From NCBI GenBank assembly GCA_964572155.1, contig CAZNDZ010000001.1, forward strand, positions 15,300 through 79,299: 64,000 nucleotides of DNA. The letters run 5' to 3'. The notes under the pieces were generated by a model. It was not told where the DNA came from and did no database searches. It saw only the letters and a program-made list of their open reading frames with translations. Each line of letters opens with the position of its first letter. Position 1 is the first letter of the stretch. Positions 46,382-63,791 of this stretch are shown here, in pieces. Made by a program: the position numbers and the translations under genes. Origin of the DNA: an uncultured Planctomycetales bacterium (GTDB lineage: Bacteria; Omnitrophota; Gorgyraeia; Zapsychrales; Fredricksoniimonadaceae).

Positions 46382-46383
46382 TG

Positions 46384-47673: not shown

Positions 47674-47726
47674 GAAGAATTGGCTCCCAAATGATTTAAG
47701 TGTAAGCTAAAAATCTAACACAGTCG

Positions 47727-50452: not shown

Positions 50453-50776
50453 TTAGGCGAGGGAATATTTCATCAGACGCGACATCTTTAATAAATTTAT
50501 TTTAGGAAAATTAACACCCACATCCCACATATTGGCGCTTGCTGGTTTACTCCATGCAACGCGACCTGTAAGGATTAAGGGAGAACCACCATCTGGCATT
50601 TGCACTTCTATCGATACAGGATCATCAAGGAACATGCGTTCACGGGTGCTAATGCGAATACCAGAAGCCGATGCGTCTCTTAAAAAAACTTCAACCCCAT
50701 AATCCGCACGAAAATCTTTAAAGCGCGTCGGAAAACGAGTCGAGAATCGCTCAAATATGCGGCGTTCTTGATCCAT
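50453..50776 (-). CDS. Standalone PilZ-domain protein (c-di-GMP receptor-like)
   Basis: RRIFERF (RxxxR) and DASASGIRIS (DxSxxG), the two c-di-GMP-binding PilZ motifs. 107 aa. Confidence 0.65.
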   Translation of the reverse strand: MDQERRIFERFSTRFPTRFKDFRADYGVEVFLRDASASGIRISTRERMFLDDPVSIEVQMPDGGSPLILTGRVAWSKPASANMWDVGVNFPKINLLKMSRLMKYSLA

Positions 50777-50779
50777 AGG

Positions 50780-51109
50780 TTATACTGTTTTCAAATATTT
50801 ATTCAAACGTGTTGCTGAACCTGCTAAAACTTCTTGGAAATTCATGCCAATGCGGTATTGCTTTGATTCTTCAATCTTACGCACCCATTTGACAACACCC
50901 AAAACCAACACCGGCGCTGTATCAGGCTGTAATTGGATTTCAATCGCTACTTTTTCATTGATCTCATGTGCGTGGCTCGAGATAAAACCAATGCCGTTCT
51001 TGCTAATGTCAACCGTTCTGGTTTGATCAAAAGCAGAACCTTCTTTCCCTTCTACCGGAACAATACAACCATGACGCGATTCAGTGCGTTTGTTAGCGGC
51101 AGATTTCAT
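50780..51109 (-). CDS. Standalone PilZ-domain protein (c-di-GMP receptor-like)
   Basis: KRTESRH (RxxxR) and DISKNGIGF (DxSxxG). 109 aa. Tandem with the previous PilZ gene. Confidence 0.65.
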   Translation of the reverse strand: MKSAANKRTESRHGCIVPVEGKEGSAFDQTRTVDISKNGIGFISSHAHEINEKVAIEIQLQPDTAPVLVLGVVKWVRKIEESKQYRIGMNFQEVLAGSATRLNKYLKTV

Positions 51110-51312: not shown

Positions 51313-51510
51313 ATGGCAAAGAAACCCGCACCTGCAAAAGTAAAATTCAATATTGCTGAATACAATAAAGGAAAAGATCTGCGCGAAAAGAACAGATTAA
51401 AGCTGTTTTACCCTACCTTAGTGAAGGTTTTGGTAGCCATTCCTGTCGTCTACTTCTTATTTTTGATTATTTACTTCTTAACCACTGCGAAGAACCTGCC
51501 TGAACGTTAA
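51313..51510 (+). CDS. Hypothetical small Lys-rich protein with one C-terminal TM helix (only plus-strand gene in this region)
   Basis: 65 aa, MAKKPAPAKVKF...VKVLVAIPVVYFLFLIIYFLTT. A TATAAT box ends 8 nt before the ATG and there is no SD, so possibly leaderless. Could also be a spurious ORF. Confidence 0.3.
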   Translation: MAKKPAPAKVKFNIAEYNKGKDLREKNRLKLFYPTLVKVLVAIPVVYFLFLIIYFLTTAKNLPER

Positions 51511-52787
51511 AACTTGTAGATAAAAACGATGAAGTATCTGGATCTTGACTTATAGAATCCAAAGGTATTGCTGGGATCTCCGGCGAAGATATCCATACCA
51601 ATCTTAACTTGCCAATGGCTATTGATATTGTATTTTAAACTGGGGCGATAGAGGAAATCGGGGCTGTCAAGGCTTGCCAACATCATAAATTCGGCATCAA
51701 GCTTGTGATTTAAGAAGTCGCGCGATACTCGAAACGATGCACCATTAGAAAACCGATGTTCATTATAGAACGATTCATTGTAATCCAAGACCACCTTTTG
51801 AAAATATTGTACGCCCACATTGATCTTATCGAAAAACGTCTTATCCATCCCCAAAACATAGGTTAAATCATCACTGCGTGCCACCCCATCGTCATCACTT
51901 GGATCTAAAGAGGAAAAATAATTGTCTTTATTAAAAACAAACTCACCGCTGATGACGGTCTCACCGACTTCTTTTGAAAAAGAACCGCCAAATGAATTAA
52001 GACGCTTATATTGAGGATCGAAATTATAAACACCACTGCCGCTAATCGTGCGAAATGCCACGGGCGCATGCGTCCAACTATACACATAAAATGCCCCAAG
52101 ATCGTAGCCGCCAAGTAAGTAAGATACACGCGCACCAGCCTTGGCATCACTAAAACCATAAGGTTGTTTTGGGTCAGCTGTTGTAAAGGAAACACCTGGC
52201 GGCACTGGCAAAGGATTAGCAAATTCAGCCCCATCAACACCCATCCGATCAAATTCTGGAGCAGGGATGATAAATGTTTCCGCATGAAATTTATCGCGCG
52301 TATATTCCACATCTGCACCCCACTCAGGAGTTCGGATTTGATCGAAATCCATGAGTGTATTCTTGCGATAATCCTTGGCATTCACAATATCGGCAACAAA
52401 AGCGCCAACCGCATCACCCCAAACAATTTGCTGTTTGCCTAGACGCACGTCCCAAGGACCGTTGGAATAATCCAGATAGGTGTCGCGCAGATCAGCTTGC
52501 AGGCGTTCATCGGAGGCCGCATTGACCGAATAATTGTCTTGATCAAACGCCGCGTCATAATTAAATCTACCGCTAACACGATAATGCAAGGTTTTTGTCA
52601 AATCACCGGAGCCATCTAAAATCACTTGTGATTGGATGTTGGAAAATTTATCTGAGGCATACATGTGACGCGCCAAGGTTTGCGACATCGAACCATGCAA
52701 GACAAAAAGATTCTCATCCGCTGCAGCTAAAGTGCTGCATGCGCAAACCATCAACAACAAACCAAATGCACGGATTTGAATTTTCAT
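51507..52787 (-). CDS. Putative outer-membrane beta-barrel protein
   Basis: Signal peptide (LLLMVCACSTLAAADE). Tyr/Gly/Asp-rich alternating pattern. C-terminus YFIVFIYKF ends in Phe. 426 aa. Confidence 0.5.
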   Translation of the reverse strand: MKIQIRAFGLLLMVCACSTLAAADENLFVLHGSMSQTLARHMYASDKFSNIQSQVILDGSGDLTKTLHYRVSGRFNYDAAFDQDNYSVNAASDERLQADLRDTYLDYSNGPWDVRLGKQQIVWGDAVGAFVADIVNAKDYRKNTLMDFDQIRTPEWGADVEYTRDKFHAETFIIPAPEFDRMGVDGAEFANPLPVPPGVSFTTADPKQPYGFSDAKAGARVSYLLGGYDLGAFYVYSWTHAPVAFRTISGSGVYNFDPQYKRLNSFGGSFSKEVGETVISGEFVFNKDNYFSSLDPSDDDGVARSDDLTYVLGMDKTFFDKINVGVQYFQKVVLDYNESFYNEHRFSNGASFRVSRDFLNHKLDAEFMMLASLDSPDFLYRPSLKYNINSHWQVKIGMDIFAGDPSNTFGFYKSRSRYFIVFIYKF

Positions 52788-52805: not shown

Positions 52806-53549
52806 TTAATAAGCCAATTTTTTTAAATACTCTTTGGAAAAATATTTTTCTGGAATTTCTTGTATCGTAATATCGCCATATTCAATCGTCGAATATTGAC
52901 CTTTCATAACGGCATCAGACAATACCAGCTTTGATGGACGCTCTGCACCTCCCAATGTCTTATAATTCTCATAACTACATGTCTTCAAAAACCTACCACT
53001 GATGGCATAAAATTCTGCTTTTAATGGCCAAAATGTATCATGTTCAGCCCATAAAATGACTTTGCCGTAGGTCGCCGTATCTGTTTTAGCTTTTAATTCC
53101 AATACATAATATTTTTTACCATTAATATCATCATCACGTAGCATGGTGGCATTATAGTCGCCGGAAAAATTGGTGCGGGCTATATCGCCATTGCTCACAT
53201 CCCCTGTTAACTTTTCTTGTAGTGAAATGCGCAAAGGTTTGGCAACTTCGGGAAAGAATGCCCAGAAATCTGGGCCACGCATTAATAATGATCGCCCTCG
53301 TTCCGTTTGAGGCTCTATGGTCTTGATGATGGTATTATCTTTCCCCTTTAACAATACTTCATACTTTGCCATGCGCTGCGCACGATTGGGCTTATAGCTA
53401 GTCACCGTGGCAATGCTCGAATGATCCTCAGCCACATTACGCACCCCGTCAACCTTAGCCACAATCTCATCCGGTGTTAATTGTGCCCATGTTGCCGTCG
53501 ATAAAATACATGCCGCAATGGTGGTAACCATCAAAAATGAATGTCTCAC
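52806..53549 (-). CDS. Outer-membrane lipoprotein-sorting protein (LolA-like fold, PF17131-type)
   Basis: Signal peptide, then QLTPDEIVAKVDGVRN...F.P......ISLQEKL, the characteristic start of LolA_like proteins that accompany FtsX-type ABC transporters. 247 aa. Confidence 0.55.
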   Translation of the reverse strand: MRHSFLMVTTIAACILSTATWAQLTPDEIVAKVDGVRNVAEDHSSIATVTSYKPNRAQRMAKYEVLLKGKDNTIIKTIEPQTERGRSLLMRGPDFWAFFPEVAKPLRISLQEKLTGDVSNGDIARTNFSGDYNATMLRDDDINGKKYYVLELKAKTDTATYGKVILWAEHDTFWPLKAEFYAISGRFLKTCSYENYKTLGGAERPSKLVLSDAVMKGQYSTIEYGDITIQEIPEKYFSKEYLKKLAY

Positions 53550-53553
53550 AAGT

Positions 53554-54423
53554 TTACTCCGTCTTTAATGTTAGCGAATAAATCATGCGTTTTAAACGTT
53601 GTAAAGGGCTTTTCATCCCTAAAGGATAATATCGTTGATTCACCTGTTGGGTGAACATATCAAACTGATAAATATGCGGCGCATAATCAACCTTGGCTTT
53701 GCCTGTTAACATCTTGACGGTTTCTGTGCTCGACAAAGCCCCAACCAGCATAAGCCCAGGGCAAACACTAGCCCCTCGACGCTGCTTCGGATTCAATACC
53801 CGAGAGCGATCAAGGTATTTTAAACAAAATGGATTTGGATTTAAGCCCGCAATCATGGTTAAAATTTTTTGAGTAGGATCAAGCTTGTCGGAAAAATCAA
53901 AATATTCATCAAAGCTCATGCCTGTTGGAGAAAACATGATCATCGTCGCCCCAAAACCCATGGGTGCACATGTTAAAGACGGGATGCCTTTAAGCCGCGT
54001 GTGACGAAAGAATAAACGTTTGACCTCGATCTCATAGAGATCAATTCCATCTAATGCCACATCAACACCGTCTAAGAATGCTGTGATATTTTCTGGGTTA
54101 ATGCCTTTGGAAAAAACTTCCACCTTCGCTTGTGGATTGATATCTAAGATCATCTGACGCATGACCTCGCATTTGTCCACACCGATCGTCGACATCGTCG
54201 CACCCATTTGTCGATTCATATTGGTCATATCAAAGGTATCTAAATCCGCAATGCGAAAAGCACCGACACCTAAACGTGCTAAAGCCTGAGCTTGGTATCC
54301 ACCGGCCCCACCAACACCGGCAATGGCCACAAGCGAGCTTTTTAATTTAGCTTGTTGCTCCTCGGTGAGCCAACCTAAATTGCGATCAAATGCTTTTTCA
54401 TAAACAAATTCATTAGCCGGCAT
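53554..54423 (-). CDS. ThiF/MoeB/HesA-family E1-like adenylyltransferase
   Basis: SLVAIAGVGGAGGYQAQALARLGVGAFRIADLDTFDMTNMNRQ is the nucleotide-binding Rossmann motif of E1-like enzymes. 289 aa. Not part of the thi operon. Confidence 0.7.
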   Translation of the reverse strand: MPANEFVYEKAFDRNLGWLTEEQQAKLKSSLVAIAGVGGAGGYQAQALARLGVGAFRIADLDTFDMTNMNRQMGATMSTIGVDKCEVMRQMILDINPQAKVEVFSKGINPENITAFLDGVDVALDGIDLYEIEVKRLFFRHTRLKGIPSLTCAPMGFGATMIMFSPTGMSFDEYFDFSDKLDPTQKILTMIAGLNPNPFCLKYLDRSRVLNPKQRRGASVCPGLMLVGALSSTETVKMLTGKAKVDYAPHIYQFDMFTQQVNQRYYPLGMKSPLQRLKRMIYSLTLKTE

Positions 54424-54425
54424 GA

Positions 54426-54914
54426 TTATGAGCTTTCCGTCTTAGGTGAATATTTTTCTTTATAATATTTTTTCAAATCTTGGGGCGTATGGTTATGTTG
54501 CAAAAAATTTGCGCGCCATGTTTTGGCTTTATGGCAATGAGGCAAATCTTTATTTTGTATCGGGCAGTAGCGTTTTTCTATTTCATTGGTGATGGCCAAG
54601 GTCCATTGCAAGGTGCCGTTCGCCCACTCGCAATATTCACACCACATCTTATCCATGAATCCCATGTGAGGCACTTTGTGACGATCATATTGAAAAAAGT
54701 TTTTAGGATCGACGGGTTTTTGCCCACGCAGGCTAAAATACGCCCAATTAAAAAAGAACGTGTACAAATATAAGGGCAACAAAAATATGGCAAAAGAAAC
54801 CATGACGGGATAACCCAATAACGGGGTTAAAGGCCCGAGGGGTTGTTTGTGACCTTCACAACAACTAAGCTCTTTTAAACAAGCTTGGACACTTACTTTT
54901 TCTGTATTAGACAT
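54426..54914 (-). CDS. Cys/His-rich single-pass membrane protein of unknown function
   Basis: 162 aa, one TM (GYPVMVSFAIFLLPLYLYTFFF). Cys/His clusters (CLKELSCCEGH, CEYCEW, CP...HCH). 2-nt gap to the ThiF-like gene. Confidence 0.4.
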   Translation of the reverse strand: MSNTEKVSVQACLKELSCCEGHKQPLGPLTPLLGYPVMVSFAIFLLPLYLYTFFFNWAYFSLRGQKPVDPKNFFQYDRHKVPHMGFMDKMWCEYCEWANGTLQWTLAITNEIEKRYCPIQNKDLPHCHKAKTWRANFLQHNHTPQDLKKYYKEKYSPKTESS

Positions 54915-54973: not shown

Positions 54974-56194
54974 TTAAATTTCGTAGATTTCTTTAAGGTA
55001 AGCTTGATGCTCGGGCTTGAAGTTATTCCAGAATGTGCTGTTTTTAACAAGGCCTTGTACAAACGGTTTAGACAAGGTGAAATCCATGTTAAAGGTGCGT
55101 GGGTATTTCGTTTCTTTAAAGAAGTACATGCCTGGGCCTTCTTTAAGCAACATCGTATGGCGATAAGCATCCGGGATGCTTAATTTCATCAACACCGCCG
55201 GAGCAGCGTTGGCACCATGATAGGCTTTTGCTGGGCTGATGGTTTCAAAATTCAAATATTTGTATAAGAATTCATGGCGTGGATGACAACCGATGATAAA
55301 ATCCGTAACCTTATTCGACGCACGTGCATAATCGAACATCGTCTTGTATAACTTATATAGATACGCTTGTTTCTGGAAATTCTTAAACGAGTATTGCTTC
55401 ATGTTCACATGTTGAGAATTTAACGCCAATGCGCCTACTTCCGCAATCTTCTTGCCTTGTGCACGCAGGTTCTTAATTTCTTCAGGAAAAATTGTTTCCA
55501 TCGGAATGCCCATCGGTGAATCTGCCACCAAACACATGGTCCCTAAAAGTTTTTCATCTTTGCGAAGCAAGAAGGTGCGTGATCCGGGAACAAAACTATA
55601 AGAATTATAAAACATGTTTTCTTGATTAGGCACACACAACTTGCGTGACAAATATTCTTGATACACCAACGCATATGCCGCTTTTAATTCATCCAAATCA
55701 TCGACGTCTAAACCACTACAATCTGCCGTATATTTTTCTAAGAACCAGCTATTAATATCAGCCAAACTCCAAAGCACATTATTTAATTGATGAAATTTGA
55801 TCGCTTTTTCTTTAAACGCAATGTGACATAGGTTCTGATTATTTTTACCTGTAGAAAAACCAACAACCTTGCCCGTTAATTTAAAAACTTCACGGACATT
55901 CATATTCTTCTTGGGTATCTCAACATCAATGGCTTCTCCAACTTCAACCAAACCACTAACTTCAATGCACATACCGCTACGAGAAATATTAACCGTCTTT
56001 GACATTTCCCACGTAGGATTAACTTGATTTGATAATTGGTAATATATAGGAATGACTTTATTAATGCGGTTTTCGCGGCGTAATTCATCCACAAAAACAG
56101 TTTTCATAATACTGGAAGATAACTGCTGAAGCCCTTCTTCCAAATGTTCGAAGGGATTGCTTGATTCTGTAGTATGGTCCAACTTGAATTTCAT
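54974..56194 (-). CDS. Fusion of an N-terminal PilZ domain with a C-terminal GNAT-fold N-acyltransferase of the FeeM/OlsB/autoinducer-synthase-like family (Acetyltransf_5)
   Basis: PilZ motifs ELRRENRI (RxxxR) and NISRSGMCIEV (NxSxxG). The C-terminal about 250 aa (LKAAYALVYQEYL..., FLLRKDEKLLGTMCLVADSPMGIPME, IAEVGALAL) fits the N-acyl-amino-acid synthase family pattern. Confidence 0.5.
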   Translation of the reverse strand: MKFKLDHTTESSNPFEHLEEGLQQLSSSIMKTVFVDELRRENRINKVIPIYYQLSNQVNPTWEMSKTVNISRSGMCIEVSGLVEVGEAIDVEIPKKNMNVREVFKLTGKVVGFSTGKNNQNLCHIAFKEKAIKFHQLNNVLWSLADINSWFLEKYTADCSGLDVDDLDELKAAYALVYQEYLSRKLCVPNQENMFYNSYSFVPGSRTFLLRKDEKLLGTMCLVADSPMGIPMETIFPEEIKNLRAQGKKIAEVGALALNSQHVNMKQYSFKNFQKQAYLYKLYKTMFDYARASNKVTDFIIGCHPRHEFLYKYLNFETISPAKAYHGANAAPAVLMKLSIPDAYRHTMLLKEGPGMYFFKETKYPRTFNMDFTLSKPFVQGLVKNSTFWNNFKPEHQAYLKEIYEI

Positions 56195-56298: not shown

Positions 56299-57564
56299 TT
56301 ATCGATGTCTTAGCGCGTCGGTGATGACGAGTTTGGAGGCGCGGTAGGCGGGACATAAGGAGGAAATGGCGCCGATGATAACGCAGAGGATAAAAGTGGT
56401 TAAAAGGACGCTTGGAACGATGCTGGGTTGGGATAACCAGTTCATGGTGCCGCCTGGTGCGGGGGGCATGACAATGCCGATAGCGGCAATTGAGGATACA
56501 ATGCCACTGCCAATCGCTAACCCTAAGGCCCCACCAATCGACCCCAACAATAAACCTTCCAATAAAAATAATTTCATGATGCCGCTACTCCTGATCCCTA
56601 AGGCCATAAGTGTACCTATCTCACTAATCCGCTCTAATACGGCCATATTCATGGTATTAAAAACACCTAAGATCACCACAATGGACACAACCACGCGCAT
56701 GATCAAATGGAACATGTCAAACAATTCAACGGTCTTTGTATAAAAGTCGGTGATTTCTCTCCAGTCTAAAACTTCTAAATCTAAATGATTCTCCTGGAAG
56801 ATGGCTTGAAGTTTTTTCTTCATAGCAACCGTATCATCGTCGTTGCGCAAATAAACAACCAACGTTTGCACAGAATCTGTGCCTAACAATTTCTGAGCTG
56901 TCTTTAAAGGAACACGCAAGAAAATGTCATCAAAACTTTTTACCCCTGAATAAAATACCGCCTTGGTATTTAAGTCCATGGCATTGGATGATCCGTTGAC
57001 GGTATTGGTCAATAACGTCACATTCATGCCCGGGTGCGCGTCCATGGTTTGCGCCAACCCTCTGGCTAGAGCAACTTCTTTAAAGTCGTCCGCCGCTAAA
57101 CTCTGCCCCTCTTCGACAATCGGTAAGCCTACACTCTCCCCCTTATATAACTTTCTTAAATTGAGTGTATCTGCCTTAAGGAGCATTTTCTCATATACTG
57201 GATTAACCCCTTGTCCATAAAATGAGACCGTAGTTTCCCCAGTACTTAAAAGACCCGCAAAAATAATGCGCGGTGCCACATAATCCACATCAGGGACAGC
57301 CTTAACCAATGCCTCTACTTTAGAAAGATCCTCGATAAAATAGCTATATGGATCAGTTTTGCCGTATTGAATAAAGCCCTTCTTATTGATCTGCAAATGA
57401 CCTGTTTGACTCTTAATGTAACTGGCGCGCATTTGCCAGAAGGTGTTTTCAAAGAAACCCCCAACAAAAATGAGCGCGGTACAGCCAAAGACAATCGTCG
57501 ACAACGTAATAAGCGACCTTGCCCGATGACGAAATATATTGCGAAATGCTAATTTAAACATCAT
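56299..57564 (-). CDS. FtsX-family ABC transporter permease (MacB/LolE-like) with a large periplasmic domain
   Basis: [34 protein letters not shown]-terminal TM1 signature, about 230-aa periplasmic domain, three C-terminal TMs. 421 aa. Confidence 0.8.
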   Translation of the reverse strand: MMFKLAFRNIFRHRARSLITLSTIVFGCTALIFVGGFFENTFWQMRASYIKSQTGHLQINKKGFIQYGKTDPYSYFIEDLSKVEALVKAVPDVDYVAPRIIFAGLLSTGETTVSFYGQGVNPVYEKMLLKADTLNLRKLYKGESVGLPIVEEGQSLAADDFKEVALARGLAQTMDAHPGMNVTLLTNTVNGSSNAMDLNTKAVFYSGVKSFDDIFLRVPLKTAQKLLGTDSVQTLVVYLRNDDDTVAMKKKLQAIFQENHLDLEVLDWREITDFYTKTVELFDMFHLIMRVVVSIVVILGVFNTMNMAVLERISEIGTLMALGIRSSGIMKLFLLEGLLLGSIGGALGLAIGSGIVSSIAAIGIVMPPAPGGTMNWLSQPSIVPSVLLTTFILCVIIGAISSLCPAYRASKLVITDALRHR

Positions 57565-59318
57565 GCGGTGATAACCCCATCCCAGATGCGCACCAATCGA
57601 TCGGCCTCATCCATGACTTTTTGATCGTGGGTTGAAAATATGTAAGTGATCTTCTTTTCACGACTGCTCTTCTTCATTAGCGCAATGATCTCTTCGCCTG
57701 TTTTATGATCGAGGTTCGCTGTTGGCTCGTCGGCTAAGATGAATAGTGGCTCACGCACCATGGCACGGGCAATGGCCACTCGTTGCTGTTGGCCGCCACT
57801 TAACTCTAAGGGCTTATGGTTGGCATGCTTCGATAAACCAACTGCATCCAATGCCGCCAACGCTTTACGTCGACGCTCTTGCGGTGTCATAGTCTTTTGT
57901 AACAATGGAAACTCAACATTCTCAACAGCTGAAAGCACAGGCAACAAATTAAAATTCTGAAAAATAAAACTAATCTTATGCGCCCGCAAATCAGCCAACG
58001 CATCGGGCGATAATTTCGACACATCTTGACCATCGATGATCACCTGTCCGGAACTAGCCGTGTCAATGCAACCAATGATATTGAGCAACGTCGTCTTACC
58101 GCTGCCCGACGGGCCAGCAATGGCTAAAAATTCCCCACGGCCAACGCTTAAATTGATGCCTTTAAGCACATCGACGCGGTTCTTGTTTAAAAAATAGCTT
58201 TTATTAACATTGCTGATATTAATTAACGACATATGATTATCCTTATTGACGGCATCTTTGACCATGATCTCATTTAACGACAGCCGAATTGACCGTGATG
58301 TTTTAGGTTTAGCAAATCCAACCCGCCCCATCCACACCAAATTCTTACGAATACTGTCACTCCCTAACAATGTTGATAAGTCCTCTTTAATATCCATCGC
58401 TTTTTCTTTTACATGCGGCATGGTCGACAAAACCTTACCCTCATCAAGATACTTTGAAAAAAGCATGGGTGTATACGACGGCTGATGCGACAATCCTTGG
58501 GATGTTAGTGCCAACCAAAAGCGTTGGATAGCTCTACCCGCCGCTATCCAATCCTCAGGCGTTGTAGGTGTTTTATCAGTGACGATGGCAATGCCAGCAG
58601 AGCACATGATGTTGGGCAATAATTCCAACTTCAATGCGGTCATATAATGACCTAACATCAAACGGTTATAGGCTTCCATGCGTTGCGGTTTACCTAAGAA
58701 CCAACGCATGATCGGCAAGAATAGTGTTGGCATACCTAAAGCCTTAGACGGAATTCGATCAGGACTTAAGTCGTGTTCCCAATCAACAATCTTGCTGTGC
58801 ACATCAAACATTTCTGGAATTAAATACCGTAACGCTGCTGATTTGAAAATGAGCGAAGCAAAATCCATTTTTTGTTTATCTTCAAACCATAAAATCTTAT
58901 ACCCCGACGGCATTTGTGCTTCTATATTTTTCTTTTCCGTATCTTTTAACGGTGTCATGGCATATGTGAAACGATTGACCATCCGGTGTTCGATGAAACG
59001 GGCTAATGGATCAACCTTAGGATTTTGTGATTTTGAAACAACGACACGATAAACCGGCGCTTTGCCTAGTTGTGGTGGATCTACCTTATCAACAACGATA
59101 TCAAATCCCAAAGCCCCTGCTGCTGTATGCATATTTTCCAAAAAACAGCCTAAGGCAATATGATCAGAATGTCGATTTAGATGAAAGATGGTGTCGAGCA
59201 AATACCCCGTTGTGACCTCACAAGCATCCTCCGCGATCATCTTAACCCGCCATGCCTGTTCATTGTCTCCGCTGGGCGCCCATCGAGCTTTATCTAAAAG
59301 TTTTTCAATATGTGTCAC
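57561..59318 (-). CDS. Fusion: N-terminal nitroreductase-like domain (about 360 aa) + C-terminal LolD/MacB-type ABC ATPase
   Basis: N-terminus [13 protein letters not shown] matches the nitroreductase APSxxNxQPW signature, plus HRMVNRFTY (RxSxRxF-like). C-terminus [13 protein letters not shown] (Walker A), [14 protein letters not shown] (ABC signature), ILADEPT (Walker B). ATGA overlap with the downstream FtsX gene. Confidence 0.65.
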
Positions 59319-59339: not shown

Positions 59340-60608
59340 CTACCTGTAACGCAATGCTTCGACAATATTAAGCCGCGATGCCCTGCATGCAGGAAACCAC
59401 GACGATATTCCGCCAATCATGGTTGATAAAAAAAATGTAAATACCATCACCGAAGGCACAATGACTGGCTGAGAAATCCAACTCATGGTGGTTCCCGGCG
59501 ACGGCGGCATCACAATCCCAACCTTGCTAATACCAAAAACAATCACACATCCCATGCTCACACCAATCAAACCACCGACCATCCCCAAGAGGATGCCTTC
59601 GTATAAAAACAATGTCAAAATGCCTTTGCGTTTAACACCCATGGCCATGATGGTGCCAATTTCACTAAAACGTTCCATGACCGACATGTTCATGGTGTTA
59701 AAAATTCCCAAAATAACGGCGATGGATATAACAATGCGCATCACCCAATGGAATGTATTAAATAGATCTGCTGTCTTTACATAGAAATCAGAAAGCTCGT
59801 CCCATGTTTTAATTTCTAAATCATAGTGATACAACTTAAACAAGCGCTCTAGCCCTGCTTTCACCTTTAAGGTATCGTTGGTATTATGCAACTTCACAAC
59901 AATGTTTTGAACCGATGTTGTATTGAGCATTGATTGCGCTGTGGCTAAGGACATTCTAACGGTCATGTCATCATAATTCTTATCTGACGTTGCCATTACG
60001 CCTTTGACGTGCATGTCCATGGCATTAACACCGCCATGGACGGTATTGGTCATCACCGTCACAAATGCCCCTGGCTTCACATTAAGCGCTTCTGACAAAC
60101 CTTTGCCAATGATCAACGTTTCTGGCACATCTTGGGCGCTTAAACCATCCCCCACAATGATTTCACCTAATCCATTATCATCAGGACTTATCGATGTCGA
60201 TTTTCGGTCTTTGTATTTTGACGTTAAGAAGGTGCGGTCAAAATCAATGTTAACACCTTGACCCATGCATGGCAGTGAAGCATCGCCCAAATTGATAAGA
60301 CCAGAAAACTGCAAACGCGAACCAACCGATTTTACTTGTGGGATCTTATGAATCACATCCGCAATGGCTTGCGGGTCGCTAATGAGATAACTATAGGGCG
60401 AAATCTTGCTGTTTTTTTCGTAACCCGCTTTGAATATCTGAAGATGTCCAATTTGAGCATTGATGTAACTTTCTTTCATTTGAGTTAACGCATCGGTGAA
60501 GAATCCAGCGACAAACATGAGAGCGACACAACCAAAAGCAATCGTTGATAATGAAATGATCGATCGCGCTTTATGTCTAAAAATATTTCGCAAGGCAATA
60601 TTAAACAT
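59340..60608 (-). CDS. FtsX-family ABC transporter permease (LolC/MacB-like), paralog of 56299..57564
   Basis: MFNIALRNIFRHKARSIISLSTIAFGCVALMF and the same architecture as the paralog. The longest ORF extends to 60653, but the Met at 60608 aligns with the paralog start. Confidence 0.75.
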   Translation of the reverse strand: MFNIALRNIFRHKARSIISLSTIAFGCVALMFVAGFFTDALTQMKESYINAQIGHLQIFKAGYEKNSKISPYSYLISDPQAIADVIHKIPQVKSVGSRLQFSGLINLGDASLPCMGQGVNIDFDRTFLTSKYKDRKSTSISPDDNGLGEIIVGDGLSAQDVPETLIIGKGLSEALNVKPGAFVTVMTNTVHGGVNAMDMHVKGVMATSDKNYDDMTVRMSLATAQSMLNTTSVQNIVVKLHNTNDTLKVKAGLERLFKLYHYDLEIKTWDELSDFYVKTADLFNTFHWVMRIVISIAVILGIFNTMNMSVMERFSEIGTIMAMGVKRKGILTLFLYEGILLGMVGGLIGVSMGCVIVFGISKVGIVMPPSPGTTMSWISQPVIVPSVMVFTFFLSTMIGGISSWFPACRASRLNIVEALRYR

Positions 60609-62190
60609 CGGAGTACCTTCCCGGAGACATGATGCCTTTAGGATCAAGGGCATGCTTAATGGAACGCTGTACTTTCCAAAATGTATCCTCAGGGTTTACC
60701 AAATCATGCATCATATCAACACCTGTGCGATAAGGATATACACCCATCTTACGCCCACCTTCTAACAATGCTTCAAAACAGGCCTTGGCGCGTTGTGTTT
60801 GATCTTCGTTGTTTAAATCAAAAAGAATTGGGACCGTACTATCAAAACATTTTTCAGAAACACTCGATAACGTGATCAATGGCTCCATTTGATACTGCGC
60901 ACATGTGCGCTCGACAAAATCAATATAACGTCTAACAAGTGCCGCTTTCATGGGAACTAATGGTGCGTACCATAAAAGACCACAACCATCCCGTGCTGGA
61001 TTTAACGTAACCCCTTGGGGAACACCTTGCCGCAACTGACGATAACATAAACTTAATGCCCCACCGTTGGGACGCCCCTCAGATAGATCTAATGGGATCA
61101 GCATTTTTTGAAACTGCACAAATAAGGCTTTTGGAATAATAAACCCCAATGGTTTTAAAATCGACTGCAGCAAGAGCACACGCGAACGTGTTAAGAAAAT
61201 CACCCGATTCACATCTGGTTTAATGCGTGCTTTGAGCGCATGCTTAGCTGCTTTGATGATCGATTTCTTTCCATAAAAAGAACCAATGCATGTCCACGGC
61301 GCATATCCTGCTTGCTTGGCCTGTTGCTTTAAGTGTGCAATAAAATTATTTGGGGATGCCGCAACCTCATCAAAAGGAAACGGAAGTGTCATGGATAGCA
61401 ATTGCAATGAACTGATCATTTTAATTGAACCAATCAAAGCACCATGTTCAATCAGAACATTTCGCACCAGGTCAACAGTCTTTTCCAAATCAGCATCTGA
61501 GGAAATGTCAAAATAAAATGTTTCCACATGTTCTGGTCGTGGGGCTAAGGCAATGGTCATTTCTGTGACAATGCCATAATTGCTTTGTGAAAATATACCA
61601 TCAATATATGGGCCTATCCCCCATTTAAAAACCTTGTCGACCTGATGACATCCTTTCGCATAAATCGCTGAACGATATATGGTCCCATTGGCCAATACCG
61701 CTTCTAAATTCATGACAGCGAAGAAATGGTCCGCAAGAGGAACCAAGCCATAGCCGCGCTCTAAAGCATTCCCTAGAATACTAGCCTCAGGACCTGCACC
61801 TGTTGTTGGCATAAGATACTCATCACCATGTTCTAATAAAAATGTCGCTAGTTGCCCTTGCGTTACCCCTGGCTCTACAGTGATCACTCCCAAATCAGCA
61901 TCATAGCCACTAATTTTTGTCATGCCTGAAAGATCAACAATCACACAACCATCCGTTGCTGGATTAGCAGTACCATAACCCCAATTATTGCCTTTGCTAA
62001 TAGGATATAAAGCAATGTTATGTTGATTAGCAATTTTAACAATATCCACGACTTCTTGTCGTGTGGTCGGGGCAACAACGCCTAATATTTCACGTTTGGC
62101 ACCTGTTGTATCAGCATGGTATTTTTCAAGATCTTGCGGATTTGTTTTCACATGGATACTACCAAATATGTGCATCATTTTATCAATCAT
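60601..62190 (-). CDS. FAD-linked oxidase (PCMH-type FAD_binding_4 domain, VAO/GlcD superfamily)
   Basis: N-terminal FAD-binding domain (VVAPTTRQEVVDIVKIANQHNIALYPISKGNNWGYG...VIVDLSGMTKI), C-terminal substrate-binding domain ending SPGRY. 529 aa. Confidence 0.65.
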   Translation of the reverse strand: MIDKMMHIFGSIHVKTNPQDLEKYHADTTGAKREILGVVAPTTRQEVVDIVKIANQHNIALYPISKGNNWGYGTANPATDGCVIVDLSGMTKISGYDADLGVITVEPGVTQGQLATFLLEHGDEYLMPTTGAGPEASILGNALERGYGLVPLADHFFAVMNLEAVLANGTIYRSAIYAKGCHQVDKVFKWGIGPYIDGIFSQSNYGIVTEMTIALAPRPEHVETFYFDISSDADLEKTVDLVRNVLIEHGALIGSIKMISSLQLLSMTLPFPFDEVAASPNNFIAHLKQQAKQAGYAPWTCIGSFYGKKSIIKAAKHALKARIKPDVNRVIFLTRSRVLLLQSILKPLGFIIPKALFVQFQKMLIPLDLSEGRPNGGALSLCYRQLRQGVPQGVTLNPARDGCGLLWYAPLVPMKAALVRRYIDFVERTCAQYQMEPLITLSSVSEKCFDSTVPILFDLNNEDQTQRAKACFEALLEGGRKMGVYPYRTGVDMMHDLVNPEDTFWKVQRSIKHALDPKGIMSPGRYSDV

Positions 62191-63791
62191 CGAGAGTACC
62201 TGCCTGGAGACATGATATTGTTAGGATCTAATGCCTGCTTGATCGATGCTTGTACATTCCAAAATGAATGTTCTGGATCAACCACGTCTTTCATCATGCC
62301 AATGCCCGCCCGATGAGGGTATGCCCCTCGCAAACGCCCCCCTTCAATCAGCGCCGCTAAACACTCTTTGGCTCGCCGAGACTGATCTGTATTCATCGGA
62401 TCAAATAAAATAGGTATTGGGCTAATGATGCAACGTTCCGAGATGCTGGTCAATGTTACTAATGGTTCAATGCCGTAATGCTCACATGTGTTTTCTACAA
62501 ATTGAACATACGCACTTGCGGTATGCGGCTGTAATGGTAAAAGTGGTGCATACCAATAAATACCACATCCATCCGCTGCTGGATTTAGATTCTTTCCTTT
62601 GGGAACACCTTGACGCAGTTGTCGATAACATATGTGCAACGTTTCCTGCCGCGGCTTACCTGACAAAATATCGAGCATCATGGTCATCTTTTCAAAACGA
62701 TTCCTAATTTTCGAAAACAAATTCTTCGGTAAACGTGAAAATAACGCATCAATGAATAAAATTTTCTCTTTAGATAAGAACAAAACCCGTCGAGATCGTT
62801 CTCTAACTATTTTGACCAATTCTTTTTTAACAGCTTGGATGACATACTTATGTCCGTAAAGTGATCCCATGCAAGTCCACGCATAAAATCCATTTTCTTT
62901 GGCTTTACGCTTTAAAATACTTTTGGCTTTATCTGGCGTGGCATCAATTTCATCAAAAGGATAATCTGCGGTCACAGCTGATAATCGTAAATCACTCATG
63001 ATATTGATTGACCCAGAAAACACACCAACATCTTTAAGTATTTTTCTAACCGTCACTATCGCATCCTCTAAATCTTCTTCCTTTGAGAATTCAATGAAAA
63101 ATATTTCGATGCATTCTGGCTTGGGTCGCAAGGCAATCGTTGCTTTTGTCACAATACCAAAATTACTTTGAGAGAACAAACCATCGAGATATGGGCCAAT
63201 GCCCCATTTGAAGACCCCATCAACATCTTCACATTCTTTAGCATGGATGGCAGAATGATAGATACTACCATCAGCTAATACAACTTCTAAACTCATGACA
63301 GCAAGAAAATGATCCGCAATCGGCACTAAACCATAACCACGTTCTAAAGAATTTCCTAAGATCGTGCCATCAGGACCAGTGCTGGTCGTTGGGGTTATAT
63401 ATAAATCATCGTGTTTTAAAAGAAATGCCGCAAGCTGTTCTTGAGTAACGCCTGGCTCTAATGTCACAACCCCTAATTGTGGGTCGTAGCCACTAATAGT
63501 ATTCATGCCAGATAAGTCCACAATGACAGAACCACTTTGTGCAGGATTTGCCGAACCATATCCCCAATTATTTCCCTTACTAATAGGATATAGCGCAATG
63601 CCGTATTCCGACGCGATCTTAACAATCGCAACAACTTCAGTTGACGTGATTGGCCTTAAAACACCTGAAATGATGCGGGATGAATTTGTTGTATCAGCGT
63701 GGTACTTTTGCAAGTCAAACGCTTGTGTTTTTACGCGTTCAGCGCCAAGCAAATTTTGCCATGCAGTTAAAGCTACTGATAAGTTATCCAT
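62187..63791 (-). CDS. FAD-linked oxidase (PCMH-type FAD_binding_4), tandem paralog of 60601..62190
   Basis: VLRPITSTEVVAIVKIASEYGIALYPISKGNNWGYG...VIVDLSGMNTI, about 50% identical to its neighbour across the full length. ATGA overlap with the downstream paralog. Confidence 0.65.
   Translation of the reverse strand: MDNLSVALTAWQNLLGAERVKTQAFDLQKYHADTTNSSRIISGVLRPITSTEVVAIVKIASEYGIALYPISKGNNWGYGSANPAQSGSVIVDLSGMNTISGYDPQLGVVTLEPGVTQEQLAAFLLKHDDLYITPTTSTGPDGTILGNSLERGYGLVPIADHFLAVMSLEVVLADGSIYHSAIHAKECEDVDGVFKWGIGPYLDGLFSQSNFGIVTKATIALRPKPECIEIFFIEFSKEEDLEDAIVTVRKILKDVGVFSGSINIMSDLRLSAVTADYPFDEIDATPDKAKSILKRKAKENGFYAWTCMGSLYGHKYVIQAVKKELVKIVRERSRRVLFLSKEKILFIDALFSRLPKNLFSKIRNRFEKMTMMLDILSGKPRQETLHICYRQLRQGVPKGKNLNPAADGCGIYWYAPLLPLQPHTASAYVQFVENTCEHYGIEPLVTLTSISERCIISPIPILFDPMNTDQSRRAKECLAALIEGGRLRGAYPHRAGIGMMKDVVDPEHSFWNVQASIKQALDPNNIMSPGRYSR

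What the first reader, a model, noticed from the sequence alone, without database searches (positions are those of the whole stretch)
57561..59318. Nitroreductase-like domain fused to a LolD/MacB-type ABC ATPase, flanked by two FtsX permeases in lolCDE order
The ATPase half is a canonical LolD/MacB-type cassette with Walker A, signature and Walker B motifs. Its first about 360 residues carry nitroreductase signatures: [10 protein letters not shown] against consensus APSxxNxQPW, and an RxSxRxF-like HRMVNRF. Flavin nitroreductase/SagB-like dehydrogenase folds fused to a mechanotransmission-type ABC ATPase are, as far as I know, unreported. The FtsX(59340..60608)-ATPase-FtsX(56299..57564) order mirrors lolC-lolD-lolE, and a LolA-like protein (52806..53549) is nearby.
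Basis: partly seen in the sequence, partly recalled or inferred. Interest (0 to 1): 0.7.

Follow-up and report, generated by a model that had tools for sequence, protein, structure and literature searches.

The report
Oxazolone desaturase fused to exporter ATPase
In an uncultured Omnitrophota bacterium, one lost stop codon has joined a flavin enzyme of the known N-acyl-oxazolone lipid pathway to the ATPase of the neighbouring Lol-like exporter; the fusion itself is a one-lineage curiosity, but it points to a recurring link, not found in the papers searched, between making these lipids and exporting them to the cell envelope.

Summary
The 585-aa ORF (57561..59318, minus strand) is real, and its DNA is identical in three independent read-set assemblies. 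Residues 363-585 are an intact LolD/MacB-type ABC ATPase. Residues 1-355 are not SagB-like. [quoted passage not shown] Its pathway partners lie in the same operon: a PilZ-FeeM N-acyl amino acid synthase and a ThiF-type cyclase.

The fusion is unique among the roughly 5.8 billion proteins searched. All four related Omnitrophota-type lineages keep two adjacent genes 4-18 nt apart. The window's Lys359 codon AAG sits exactly where one relative has its TAG stop, so one base change explains the fusion. The ATPase's own Shine-Dalgarno motif and ATG survive inside the 7-residue disordered linker.

The transporter is not canonical LolCDE, because it scores below the curated cut-offs. It belongs to a distinct ABC + FtsX + LolA-like + DUF1302 module that also sits beside ThiF-FDO genes in 18 of 80 proteobacterial loci, in several different arrangements. 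None of the oxazolone papers read mentions such an exporter.

Verdict: a new variant of a known kind, of moderate interest.

The parts
57561..59318 (-). Fused ORF of 585 aa: FDO desaturase domain, 7-residue linker, ABC ATPase
   Evidence: ORF listing. Found as the identical protein P0001 on 8 contigs. The DNA is 1758/1758 identical in L001-L003. The full-length AF2 model has mean pLDDT 92.2 and pTM 0.71, and the only segment below pLDDT 50 is residues 355-361.
58254..59318 (-). Residues 1-355: TyzC/OxzB-type flavin-dependent oxidase (monomeric tandem nitroreductase fold)
   Evidence: NCBIfam hits to Acg family (1.1e-27), Rv1355c family (2.5e-26) and PRK14851 (3.6e-22). AF2 model pLDDT 94.3, pTM 0.93. 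Foldseek best hit 2YMV (MsAcg), E 7e-12. All 28 invariant family columns are retained. R164 and Q279 align with the residues mutated in TrzS.
58233..58253 (-). Linker AVNKDNH (residues 356-362): the former intergenic spacer now read in frame. It contains the AAG codon (58242..58244) at the position of a relative's TAG stop, and the AAGGA Shine-Dalgarno-like motif (58240..58244)
   Evidence: Junction DNA. Stand-alone relatives end within 1-3 residues of residue 355. L087 reads TAG GAT ATC AAT ATG where the window reads AAG GAT AAT CAT ATG. pLDDT is below 50 for residues 355-361.
57561..58232 (-). Residues 363-585: LolD/MacB-type ABC ATPase with its original ATG (58230..58232)
   Evidence: Pfam ABC_tran 2.3e-32. 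TIGR02211 scores 225 bits against a cut-off of 307.75. Motifs are intact. It is 85% and 82% identical to the separate ABC genes of L004 and L005. AAGGA lies 7 nt before the ATG.
59340..60608 (-). FtsX-type permease a (MacB_PCD + FtsX), 21 nt upstream of the fusion
   Evidence: Pfam MacB_PCD 6.4e-11 and FtsX 4.2e-11. TIGR02212 lolCE scores 100.7 bits against a cut-off of 362. Gene callers start it at M16 of the longer ORF.
56299..57564 (-). FtsX-type permease b, overlapping the fusion's stop codon by 4 nt
   Evidence: Pfam MacB_PCD 1.4e-12 and FtsX 9.7e-14. lolCE scores 88.8 bits against a cut-off of 362. Gap of -4 nt.
54974..56194 (-). PilZ + FeeM-type N-acyl amino acid synthase (counterpart of OxzA/TyzA/NasY)
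   Evidence: Pfam FeeM 6.6e-36 (residues 172-338) and PilZ 3.2e-7 (residues 38-128). It also matches the N-terminal part of the PRK14852 fusion family.
54426..54914 (-). Cys-rich 162-aa protein with hydrophobic stretches and no family match, conserved in the Omnitrophota clusters
   Evidence: No Pfam or NCBIfam hit. 86% and 75% identical in L004 and L005. Not detected in the 80 proteobacterial loci.
53554..54423 (-). ThiF-family adenylating enzyme (counterpart of the TyzB / OxzB-N cyclase)
   Evidence: Pfam ThiF 4.7e-40. NCBIfam PRK08223 scores 343 bits, above its 266-bit cut-off. It also matches the ThiF parts of PRK14851, PRK14852 and Rv1355c. It is 36-44% identical to the ThiF genes directly upstream of FDO in the 80 loci.
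52806..53549 (-). LolA-like (PF17131 / TP_0789-like) periplasmic protein with an N-terminal signal-peptide-like sequence
   Evidence: Pfam LolA_like 2.3e-45. It co-occurs with the ABC and FtsX genes in 18 loci.
51507..52787 (-). DUF1302 putative outer-membrane protein, last gene of the array
   Evidence: Pfam DUF1302 9.4e-14. Present in the two-FtsX type modules of L014, L016, L018, L022, L026, L029, L031, L034, L048, L056, L061, L065 and L070.
60601..63791 (-). Two paralogous FAD_binding_4 (GlcD/VAO-type) flavoproteins at the head of the array. They overlap each other by 4 nt and FtsXa by 8 nt. Their role is unassigned.
   Evidence: Pfam FAD_binding_4 5.8e-23 and 8e-22. Present in L004 and absent from L005. 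Gaps.

Best explanation
The ORF is a fusion, seen in one lineage only, of two neighbouring genes of one biosynthesis-plus-export operon.

The N-terminal 355 residues are an FMN-dependent oxidase (FDO) of the TyzC/OxzB/TrzS type. Together with the operon's PilZ-FeeM N-acyl amino acid synthase and its ThiF-type ATP-dependent cyclase, this enzyme should convert an amino acid plus a fatty acyl donor into an N-acyl dehydro-amino acid or acyl-oxazolone lipid. The synthase acylates, the FDO desaturates and ThiF cyclises.

The C-terminal 223 residues are the nucleotide-binding subunit of a Lol-like (type VII, mechanotransmission) ABC machine made of the two flanking FtsX permeases. With the LolA-like periplasmic carrier and the DUF1302 outer-membrane protein, this machine most likely extracts that lipid from the inner membrane and passes it to the outer membrane or cell surface.

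The fusion arose when the stop codon between the two genes was lost. One T-to-A change (TAG to AAG, Lys359) is enough. The old 21-nt tail and spacer are now a disordered 7-residue linker.

Shown here: the domain identities, the intact motifs, the origin of the fusion, and the recurring gene neighbourhood. Inferred: the chemistry (by homology to characterised enzymes), the exported substrate (by gene neighbourhood), and whether the tether changes function. Nothing here shows that it does.
For: Domain identity:
- NCBIfam Acg, Rv1355c and PRK14851 models cover most or all of residues 4-354.
- The AF2 model has pLDDT 94.3, and its best PDB match is MsAcg 2YMV with TM 0.70/0.76.
- All invariant family residues are kept, as are the likely equivalents of TrzS R540 and Q651 (PMC12856293).

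Pathway partners in the operon:
- FeeM 6.6e-36, and ThiF/PRK08223 at 343 bits, above its cut-off.
- Experimental precedent: TyzA/TyzB/TyzC (PMC10404671), TrzA/TrzS (PMC12856293), OxzAB (bioRxiv 10.1101/2020.06.11.147165) and NasY+ThiF+NTR (PMC12479983).
- ThiF lies directly upstream of FDO in 68 of 80 genome loci, and is fused to it in 27. One of those is Rheinheimera pacifica, a species whose oxzAB made tyrazolones in E. coli.

Origin of the fusion:
- It occurs only as P0001, and none of the 150 best representatives has it.
- L004, L005, L086 and L087 all have separate adjacent genes. The AAG codon aligns with L087's TAG.
- The DNA is identical in three read sets.
- The linker is the only low-confidence segment of the full-length model.
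- The fused FDO shows no extra loss of conserved residues compared with its unfused relatives.

Link to the export module:
- 18 of 80 loci, and 10 of the 46 with full flanks, carry ABC + FtsX + LolA-like genes (13 of the 18 also DUF1302) beside ThiF-FDO, in at least four different gene orders.
- The best database-wide homologues of the ABC half are those same ATPases, at 91-100% identity to the ABC ORFs of L014, L016, L018, L022 and L056.
- Type VII ABC systems are known or proposed lipid extractors (PMC12646458).
Against: - No biochemical data exist for this protein or for any Omnitrophota homologue.
- The FDO is only 33-38% identical to the proteobacterial FDOs, and only about 29% to an Rv1355c-like protein, so its substrate and product may differ.
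- Characterised FDOs use O2. The oxygen tolerance of this organism was not examined here, and many Omnitrophota are described as anaerobes (my own knowledge). The electron acceptor is therefore open.
- Most ThiF-FDO loci (about 78% of those with full flanks) have no exporter within 10 kb, so export by this module is not obligatory.
- Type VII transporters act on the periplasmic leaflet, whereas the FDO is cytoplasmic. The tether therefore cannot hand substrate straight to the extraction site.
- The surviving SD + ATG means the ATPase may still be made separately, so the fusion could be functionally neutral.
- The fusion is seen in one sequence type only, so selection for it cannot be tested.
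Confidence: 0.67

Rival explanations
1. The fusion is adaptive. Tethering the desaturase to the exporter's ATPase builds a membrane-associated biosynthesis-export complex, or couples ATPase activity to substrate supply. In that role the FDO would act like the FHA or PAS input domains found at the same position in related ATPases.
For: The closest ABC relatives carry N-terminal FHA (P0017: FHA 24-85, ABC 126-276) or PAS (P0110) domains, so this position tolerates input domains and is used for them. FHA-ABC is the ATPase in five cluster-linked modules. Both halves of the fusion are intact.
Against: Only one lineage has the fusion, and four sister lineages keep two genes. A single point mutation explains it. 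The linker is the untouched old spacer, with no sign of remodelling. AF2 gives no confident inter-domain packing: pTM falls from 0.93 to 0.71 and the linker has pLDDT below 50. The internal SD + ATG is retained.
Confidence: 0.15
2. The two modules are neighbours by coincidence. The ABC/FtsX/LolA-like/DUF1302 machine would then traffic something else, such as a lipoprotein subset or another envelope lipid, and the FDO is fused to it only because the genes happened to be adjacent.
For: About 78% of full-flank ThiF-FDO loci lack the module. No experiment links the two. The oxazolone papers report no transporter apart from the mmpL9 adjacency in M. tuberculosis (PMC10404671).
Against: The adjacency recurs in Omnitrophota and in Beta- and Gammaproteobacteria with different gene orders and orientations. 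The ATPase subfamily closest to the window's is specifically the cluster-linked one. Within the Omnitrophota operon the genes overlap or lie 2-21 nt apart, with biosynthetic genes interleaved with transport genes.
Confidence: 0.12
3. The operon encodes the organism's canonical lipoprotein-sorting LolCDE, and LolD has simply acquired an extra domain.
For: The gene order FtsX-ATPase-FtsX resembles lolC-lolD-lolE. LolD is the top-scoring NCBIfam model for the ATPase half.
Against: All scores are well below the curated equivalog cut-offs: LolD 225 against 307.75, and lolCE 100.7 and 88.8 against 362.45. The DevA, MacB and DarD models score almost as well as LolD. The carrier belongs to PF17131, and no LolA family appears in the NCBIfam scan at E<=0.01. 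The module is embedded in a natural-product-like cluster whose tailoring genes vary between relatives.
Confidence: 0.03
4. The fusion is a sequencing or assembly artefact.
For: It is a singleton architecture. A one-base difference at a stop codon would produce it.
Against: The 1758-nt gene is identical in Logan assemblies of SRR10036059, SRR10036058 and ERR15459718. The protein is recorded on 8 contigs, including a 1.34-Mb NCBI contig. No frameshift is involved and there is no homopolymer at the junction.
Confidence: 0.03

Closest known systems
TyzC (Rv2337c) with TyzB (ThiF) and TyzA, the M. tuberculosis acyl-tyrazolone pathway (PMC10404671)
   Same: The FDO is a single-domain monomeric protein of about 350-370 aa encoded separately from its ThiF partner. 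A FeeM-fold N-acyltransferase is in the same cluster. The predicted fold is Acg-like.
   Different: Here the FDO is fused at its C-terminus to an ABC ATPase and is not adjacent to ThiF: four genes lie between them. The synthase carries a PilZ domain. The host is Omnitrophota. The neighbouring transporter is Lol-like rather than MmpL9.
OxzB / TrzS (Rv1355c), the ThiF-FDO di-domain oxazolone synthetases (bioRxiv 10.1101/2020.06.11.147165; PMC12856293)
   Same: The FDO domain is homologous: Rv1355c-family model 2.5e-26 over residues 4-352, and 34-38% identity to proteobacterial loci, including the R. pacifica oxzB locus L074. The FDO readily fuses to pathway neighbours.
   Different: In those enzymes the fusion partner is the upstream ThiF cyclase, at the N-terminus of the FDO. 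Here the partner is a downstream transport ATPase, at its C-terminus. The two fused activities are therefore catalysis and transport, not two catalytic steps.
LolCDE-LolA lipoprotein trafficking system
   Same: A separate NBD lies between two FtsX/MacB_PCD permease genes, with a LolA-fold periplasmic carrier nearby. Both belong to the type VII ABC class.
   Different: It fails the LolD, LolC and LolE equivalog cut-offs. The carrier is PF17131, not canonical LolA. It is paired with a DUF1302 outer-membrane protein instead of LolB. It is embedded in a small-lipid biosynthetic cluster.
FHA-ABC and PAS-ABC ATPases of the same subfamily (e.g. P0017, P0101, P0110)
   Same: They are the closest homologues of the ABC half (43-64% identity). 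They also carry an extra cytoplasmic domain at the N-terminus of the NBD. Several sit in modules next to FeeM-ThiF-FDO genes.
   Different: Their added domain is a signalling module (phospho-threonine binding or PAS), not an enzyme of the linked pathway.
DevBCA-type and MacAB-type lipid or glycolipid exporters, and YbbAP-TesA (PMC12646458)
   Same: These are type VII ABC systems that act, or are proposed to act, on lipid-like substrates. The DevA model scores 216 bits.
   Different: No membrane-fusion (DevB/MacA) protein was seen among the cluster genes scanned. Here a LolA-like carrier and a DUF1302 protein take the periplasmic and outer-membrane roles.

Membership tests
FDO subgroup of the nitroreductase superfamily (Acg/TyzC/OxzB-C/TrzS-C) | A single polypeptide forming a pseudo-dimeric tandem nitroreductase fold (monomer of about 340-370 aa) | tested here: met
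   The AF2 model has pLDDT 94.3 and pTM 0.93. Foldseek's best hit is 2YMV (MsAcg) with TM 0.70/0.76, while ordinary dimeric nitroreductases match only half of the model (TMq about 0.35).
FDO subgroup of the nitroreductase superfamily (Acg/TyzC/OxzB-C/TrzS-C) | Sequence match to curated FDO-containing families across the whole domain | tested here: inconclusive
   Hits are significant: NF047509 Acg family 1.1e-27 (97 bits), PRK07877 Rv1355c 2.5e-26 and PRK14851 3.6e-22. All are below the whole-protein cut-offs (199, 476 and 1170 bits). For two of these models that is expected, because they also cover a ThiF half that is absent here.
FDO subgroup of the nitroreductase superfamily (Acg/TyzC/OxzB-C/TrzS-C) | Conserved flavin-site residues, including the equivalents of TrzS R540 and Q651 | tested here: met
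   The [10 protein letters not shown] motif, R112, R116, Q279-P280 and R342-S343-R345 are invariant and present. R164 and Q279 align with R538 and Q654 of an Rv1355c-like protein. The correspondence to TrzS numbering is inferred, being offset by 2-3 residues.
FDO subgroup of the nitroreductase superfamily (Acg/TyzC/OxzB-C/TrzS-C) | [quoted passage not shown] | not testable with these tools
   This requires purified protein and LC-MS assays such as those in PMC10404671 and PMC12856293.
Acyl-oxazolone / N-acyl dehydro-amino-acid gene cluster (OxzAB, TyzABC, TrzAS, NasY type) | Co-occurrence of an N-acyl amino acid synthase, a ThiF-like enzyme and an FDO in one cluster | tested here: met
   FeeM domain 6.6e-36, ThiF 4.7e-40 (PRK08223 above its cut-off) and the FDO all lie on the minus strand between 53554 and 59318. 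The same trio occurs in L004 and L005 and in many of the 80 loci.
OxzB / TrzS di-domain oxazolone synthetase | ThiF and FDO domains in one polypeptide | tested here: not met
   ThiF is a separate 289-aa gene (53554..54423), four genes downstream of the fusion. The arrangement is TyzB/TyzC-like, not OxzB-like.
SagB-type (TOMM) dehydrogenase | Match to the SagB-type dehydrogenase domain model, with a YcaO cyclodehydratase partner | tested here: not met
   No SagB model appears among the NCBIfam hits even at E<=10. No YcaO domain was found in the ten neighbouring proteins scanned.
LolCDE (canonical lipoprotein-releasing system) | Scores at or above the equivalog cut-offs for LolD and LolC/E | tested here: not met
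   LolD TIGR02211 scores 225 against 307.75, and PRK11629 scores 209 against 360. lolCE TIGR02212 scores 100.7 and 88.8 against 362.45.
LolCDE (canonical lipoprotein-releasing system) | Uniqueness: no second lolCDE in the genome | not testable with these tools
   Only 64 kb of the genome was available. The 426- and 428-aa ORFs at 23627..26193 are a helicase-like protein and a TIGR00375-family protein, not lolCE.
Type VII (MacB/FtsX-fold, mechanotransmission) ABC systems | An ABC NBD with intact motifs, plus permeases with the FtsX transmembrane domain and a MacB-like periplasmic core domain | tested here: met
   Walker A, Q-loop, signature, Walker B and H-loop are all present. Both permeases hit MacB_PCD and FtsX above the Pfam cut-offs.

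The most novel reading that the evidence does not exclude
Acyl-oxazolone / N-acyl dehydro-amino-acid lipids of diderm bacteria are envelope or surface lipids with their own Lol-type trafficking route: a LolCDE-like extractor, a PF17131 LolA-like carrier and a DUF1302 outer-membrane acceptor. That would be a Lol-style pathway for a small lipid rather than for a lipoprotein. In this Omnitrophota lineage the last biosynthetic enzyme would be physically docked on the extractor's ATPase, giving a combined synthesis-export machine, possibly under c-di-GMP control through the PilZ domain on the synthase.
Probability: 0.3. Interest if true: 0.7.

Novelty: new variant of a known kind. Interest (0 to 1): 0.45.

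Why it matters
The oxazolone pathway papers say plainly that the biological role and cellular fate of these lipids are unknown (bioRxiv 10.1101/2020.06.11.147165; PMC10404671). This locus offers a concrete, testable answer: the pathway is physically fused here to a dedicated Lol-like inner-membrane-to-outer-membrane export module, and it sits next to the same module in 18 of 80 proteobacterial loci. That suggests the products are shipped to the outer membrane or cell surface.

The locus also extends the pathway to the uncultured phylum Omnitrophota. It defines a subfamily of type VII ABC ATPases that collect N-terminal add-on domains (FHA, PAS and, here, an enzyme). And it gives a clean example of a gene fusion created by a single stop-codon substitution, with the old ribosome-binding site preserved inside the linker.

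The fusion itself is probably of little functional consequence.

Tried and rejected
- Pfam alone under-calls the N-terminal domain, matching only residues 3-30. A PDB sequence search gave only marginal hits (E 0.2). NCBIfam and a fold search were needed.
- The SagB-like idea was rejected: there is no model hit and no YcaO.
- Canonical LolCDE was rejected on curated cut-offs.
- A frameshift or assembly artefact was rejected: three assemblies give identical DNA, and the stop loss is in frame.
- Apparent long open frames upstream of the ABC gene in the Rubrivivax loci L017 and L053 looked like further fusions. They are in a different frame from the FDO gene and are high-GC artefacts.
- The FDO half is only 52-57% identical between lineages, against 64-86% for its neighbours, which suggested decay after the fusion. 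The same low identity holds between the unfused relatives, and the fused copy deviates from the family consensus no more than they do (21 against 20-21 of 85 columns).
- The 426- and 428-aa ORFs at 23627..26193 were checked as a possible second lolCE. They are a helicase-like protein and a TIGR00375-family protein.
- An Rfam scan of the whole window found nothing, so there is no c-di-GMP or other riboswitch.
- Promoter and terminator scans were at chance level.
- The cluster-member look-up returned no names. Taxonomy came from LeuS instead.
- Literature searches for a described link between oxazolone/NAS clusters and ABC, LolA-like, DUF1302 or FtsX genes found none. The library does not cover all journals.


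Full report
**1. Observation**

The window contains a 585-aa ORF at 57561..59318 on the minus strand, with a GTG start. It lies in a tightly packed minus-strand array. The gene order is: two FAD_binding_4 flavoproteins, FtsX permease a, the ORF, FtsX permease b, a PilZ-FeeM protein, a 162-aa unknown, a ThiF-family protein, a LolA-like protein and a DUF1302 protein. Gaps are -8 to +21 nt within each of the two blocks, 104 nt between the blocks, and 59 nt between the FeeM gene and the 162-aa ORF.

The C-terminal part (residues 363-585) is a LolD/MacB/DevA-type ABC ATPase: ABC_tran 2.3e-32 and TIGR02211 8e-67. Every catalytic motif is intact. The flanking genes carry MacB_PCD + FtsX domains, and 52806..53549 is LolA_like PF17131 at 2.3e-45.

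**2. What the N-terminal half is**

Pfam's Nitroreductase model sees only residues 3-30, and a PDB sequence search gives only marginal hits. NCBIfam does much better. It matches the Acg-family FMN oxidoreductase model (1.1e-27, residues 7-283). It also matches the C-terminal halves of two ThiF-fusion families, Rv1355c (2.5e-26, residues 4-352 against model 377-718) and PRK14851 (3.6e-22). No SagB-type model matches.

An AlphaFold model built from 40 homologues is very confident, with pLDDT 94.3 and pTM 0.93. Its best PDB match is MsAcg (2YMV) at E 7e-12 and TM 0.70/0.76. Ordinary dimeric nitroreductases cover only half of the model. The domain is thus a monomeric tandem-nitroreductase "flavin-dependent oxidase" (FDO).

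R164 and Q279 align with the Arg and Gln of an Rv1355c-like protein that lie 2-3 residues from TrzS R540 and Q651. Substituting those two TrzS residues cut FMN content and impaired desaturation (PMC12856293).

**3. What is already known about this family**

- De Rond et al. showed that OxzA (an N-acyl amino acid synthase) and OxzB (a ThiF-nitroreductase di-domain) make acyl-oxazolones (bioRxiv 10.1101/2020.06.11.147165).
- Grigg et al. showed for M. tuberculosis that TyzA (FeeM fold) N-acylates Tyr/Phe, TyzC (a stand-alone FDO) desaturates the product using O2, and TyzB (ThiF) cyclises it using ATP (PMC10404671).
- Kleetz et al. showed that Rv1355c (TrzS) does both steps for tryptazolones (PMC12856293).
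- A NasY + ThiF + nitroreductase trio is proposed for N-acyl dehydrotyrosines such as the stieleriacines (PMC12479983).

The window operon holds all three parts:
- the FDO;
- a FeeM-domain synthase (6.6e-36, with an N-terminal PilZ domain);
- a ThiF protein that passes the PRK08223 cut-off and also matches the ThiF parts of PRK14851, PRK14852 and Rv1355c.

**4. Is the fusion found elsewhere?**

No.
- In a search of 5.8 billion proteins, the full-length architecture occurs only as the identical protein P0001.
- Among 48 relatives of the N-terminal domain, only P0001 has an ABC domain. The others are stand-alone proteins of about 355 aa, or are fused to ThiF.
- In a profile search of 1.84 billion representatives (8,817 hits), all 150 best hits are either stand-alone or have the FDO at the C-terminal end of a ThiF fusion. 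None has 200 or more residues after the FDO.

**5. How the fusion arose**

P0001 is recorded on 8 contigs. The 1758-nt gene is identical in Logan assemblies of three read sets, so this is not an assembly error.

Four related lineages have the same local synteny but two separate genes: L004, L005, L086 and L087/L088, whose FDOs are 52-59% identical to the window's. Their spacers are 4-18 nt. The stand-alone FDOs end within 1-3 residues of window residue 355.

L087 reads ...GAA TAG GAT ATC AAT ATG, and the window reads ...AAT AAG GAT AAT CAT ATG. The window's Lys359 codon occupies exactly the position of L087's stop, followed by the same three-codon spacer before the ATPase ATG. L004 is also in frame, with a single TGA. 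One T-to-A substitution is therefore enough.

The linker AVNKDNH is the old tail and spacer. It still contains AAGGA 7 nt before the ATPase's ATG (M363), a spacing like those of the other Shine-Dalgarno-bearing genes of the operon. The ATPase may therefore still be translated on its own.

A full-length AlphaFold model gives two well-folded domains (mean pLDDT 92.2). The only segment below pLDDT 50 is residues 355-361, and pTM drops to 0.71. In other words, no confident inter-domain packing is predicted.

The FDO is the fastest-evolving protein of the cluster in all lineages, at 52-57% pairwise identity against 64-86% for the others. The fused copy has lost no more conserved positions than the unfused ones: 21 against 20-21 of 85.

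**6. The transporter is not LolCDE**

The ATPase scores 225 bits against a LolD cut-off of 307.75. The permeases score 100.7 and 88.8 bits against 362.45 for lolCE. The DevA, MacB and DarD models score nearly as well as LolD. The carrier belongs to PF17131, not to the canonical LolA family.

The best homologues of the ATPase half in the whole database (43-64% identity) mostly carry an N-terminal FHA domain, and one carries PAS. N-terminal add-on domains thus have precedent in this subfamily.

**7. Conserved neighbourhood**

A scan of one genome per GTDB species found 573 FDO relatives. The best 80 loci come mostly from Beta- and Gammaproteobacteria, with a few Nitrospirae MAGs. I mapped the window's cluster proteins onto them with tblastn.

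- ThiF lies directly upstream of the FDO on the same strand in 68 of 80 loci. It is in one ORF with the FDO in 27 and is a separate gene in 41. One of the 27 is Rheinheimera pacifica, a species whose oxzAB produced tyrazolones in E. coli.
- A FeeM-like gene is detectable in 20 loci.
- An ABC + FtsX + LolA-like module lies within 10 kb in 18 loci, and in 10 of the 46 loci that have at least 8 kb of flank on both sides. Thirteen of the 18 are the two-FtsX type that also carries DUF1302.
- The module occurs in at least four different orders and orientations relative to ThiF-FDO.
- Its ATPases are the same proteins that top the database-wide search with the window's ABC half: 91-100% identity for L014, L016, L018, L022 and L056, and 69-82% for eight others.

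This is the signature of a functional link between the biosynthetic module and the export module. None of the oxazolone papers mentions such a transporter, and targeted literature searches found none. Grigg et al. note only the mmpL9 adjacency, and state that the fate of the lipid in the cell is an open question.

**8. Organism**

The window's LeuS is 68-76% identical to proteins whose source names are Candidatus Omnitrophota/Omnitrophica, apart from a single Elusimicrobia entry at 68%. The genome is therefore most likely an uncultured Omnitrophota. In relatives, the cluster's tailoring content varies: L005 has a second FeeM, a methyltransferase and sugar-nucleotide genes, and lacks the two FAD_binding_4 genes. 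Such variation is typical of natural-product clusters.

**9. Most likely mechanism**

Inferred steps:
1. The PilZ-FeeM synthase N-acylates an amino acid.
2. The FDO half of the fusion introduces the alpha,beta-double bond, with flavin as cofactor.
3. ThiF adenylates the carboxylate and closes the oxazolone ring. The order of steps 2 and 3 may vary, as it does between Tyz and Trz.
4. The amphiphilic product partitions into the inner membrane.
5. The FtsXa/FtsXb heterodimer extracts it on the periplasmic side. It is powered by two copies of the ATPase half, as proposed for type VII ABC systems acting on lipids (PMC12646458).
6. The extractor hands the lipid to the LolA-like carrier, which delivers it to the DUF1302 outer-membrane protein.

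Shown here: domain identities, intact motifs, the origin of the fusion and the neighbourhood conservation. Not shown: any chemistry, the substrate of the exporter, the electron acceptor, and whether tethering changes anything. The cytoplasmic FDO cannot feed the periplasmic extraction site directly, and only one lineage has the fusion. The simplest reading is therefore a neutral or nearly neutral accident within a functionally coupled operon.

**10. Verdict**

Each half belongs to a known kind, and the N-terminal enzyme family has been characterised experimentally since 2020-2025. Three things were not found in any database or paper searched here: the FDO-ABC architecture itself (one lineage, made by a single-base stop loss), the recurrent coupling of acyl-oxazolone-type clusters to a distinct Lol-like export module, and the presence of the pathway in Omnitrophota. 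Interest is moderate (0.45). The rating is new variant of a known kind.

Noticed in passing
window 54974..56194 (-), with 50453..50776 and 50780..51109 (-): The N-acyl amino acid synthase carries an N-terminal PilZ domain (residues 38-128). The same PilZ-FeeM architecture is present in L004 and L005. Two small stand-alone PilZ proteins follow the cluster. This suggests c-di-GMP control of lipid synthesis, a combination not mentioned in the oxazolone papers I read.
   Followed up: partly
window 54426..54914 (-): A 162-aa Cys-rich protein with hydrophobic stretches (CC..C, CEYCEW, YCP, HCH motifs) matches no Pfam or NCBIfam family. It is 75-86% conserved in the Omnitrophota clusters L004 and L005 and sits 2 nt upstream of ThiF. 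It was not detected in the 80 proteobacterial loci.
   Followed up: partly
window 60601..63791 (-): Two paralogous FAD_binding_4 (GlcD/VAO-like) flavoproteins head the operon with overlapping stop and start codons. They are present in L004 and absent from L005. They could be tailoring oxidases or electron-transfer partners for the FDO. Their role is unassigned.
   Followed up: no
L004 11051..11074 and L087 1247..1261: In two unfused relatives, the FDO and ABC ORFs are in the same frame and separated by a single stop codon (TGA in L004, TAG in L087). Any stop-codon read-through there would give the same fusion protein at a low level.
   Followed up: partly
L014, L016, L018, L022, L056 (ABC genes of the export module); P0017, P0101, P0110: The LolD-like ATPases of the cluster-linked modules in Thiobacillus, Nitrotoga, Sulfurirhabdus and Hydrogenophilales carry an N-terminal FHA domain, and one relative carries PAS. 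This suggests phospho-threonine or signal-dependent control of this exporter subfamily.
   Followed up: partly
window 19543..21672 (-) and 18921..19511 (-): The ClpB homologue is 709 aa and aligns to the ClpB model only from position 148 onward, so it lacks the N-terminal domain. It scores 1182 bits against a cut-off of 1232. A small heat-shock protein gene lies next to it.
   Followed up: no
window 23627..24907 (-) and 24907..26193 (-): A UvrD/PcrA-like protein of only 426 aa matches the helicase models in three separate stretches (N- and C-terminal parts), as if the middle were missing. Its stop overlaps the start of a TIGR00375-family protein.
   Followed up: no
window 14493..17651 (-) and 17840..18877 (-): A 1052-aa ORF has no NCBIfam match. 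Next to it is a 345-aa protein with a weak match to the Leptospira LIC20035 adhesin family (3.3e-19, below the cut-off).
   Followed up: no
window 42334..50438 (-): A sugar-utilisation block lies directly downstream of the cluster. It comprises a 903-aa protein whose L004 orthologue carries GH94 phosphorylase domains, a sugar ABC substrate-binding protein, and a GH2-like 764-aa protein.
   Followed up: no
window 58236..58264 (-): A sigma-70-like hexamer pair (TGGTCA-17-GATAAT) lies just upstream of the internal ATG of the ATPase half. The scan as a whole was at chance level (32 found, 34.7 expected), so this is not evidence of an internal promoter.
   Followed up: partly
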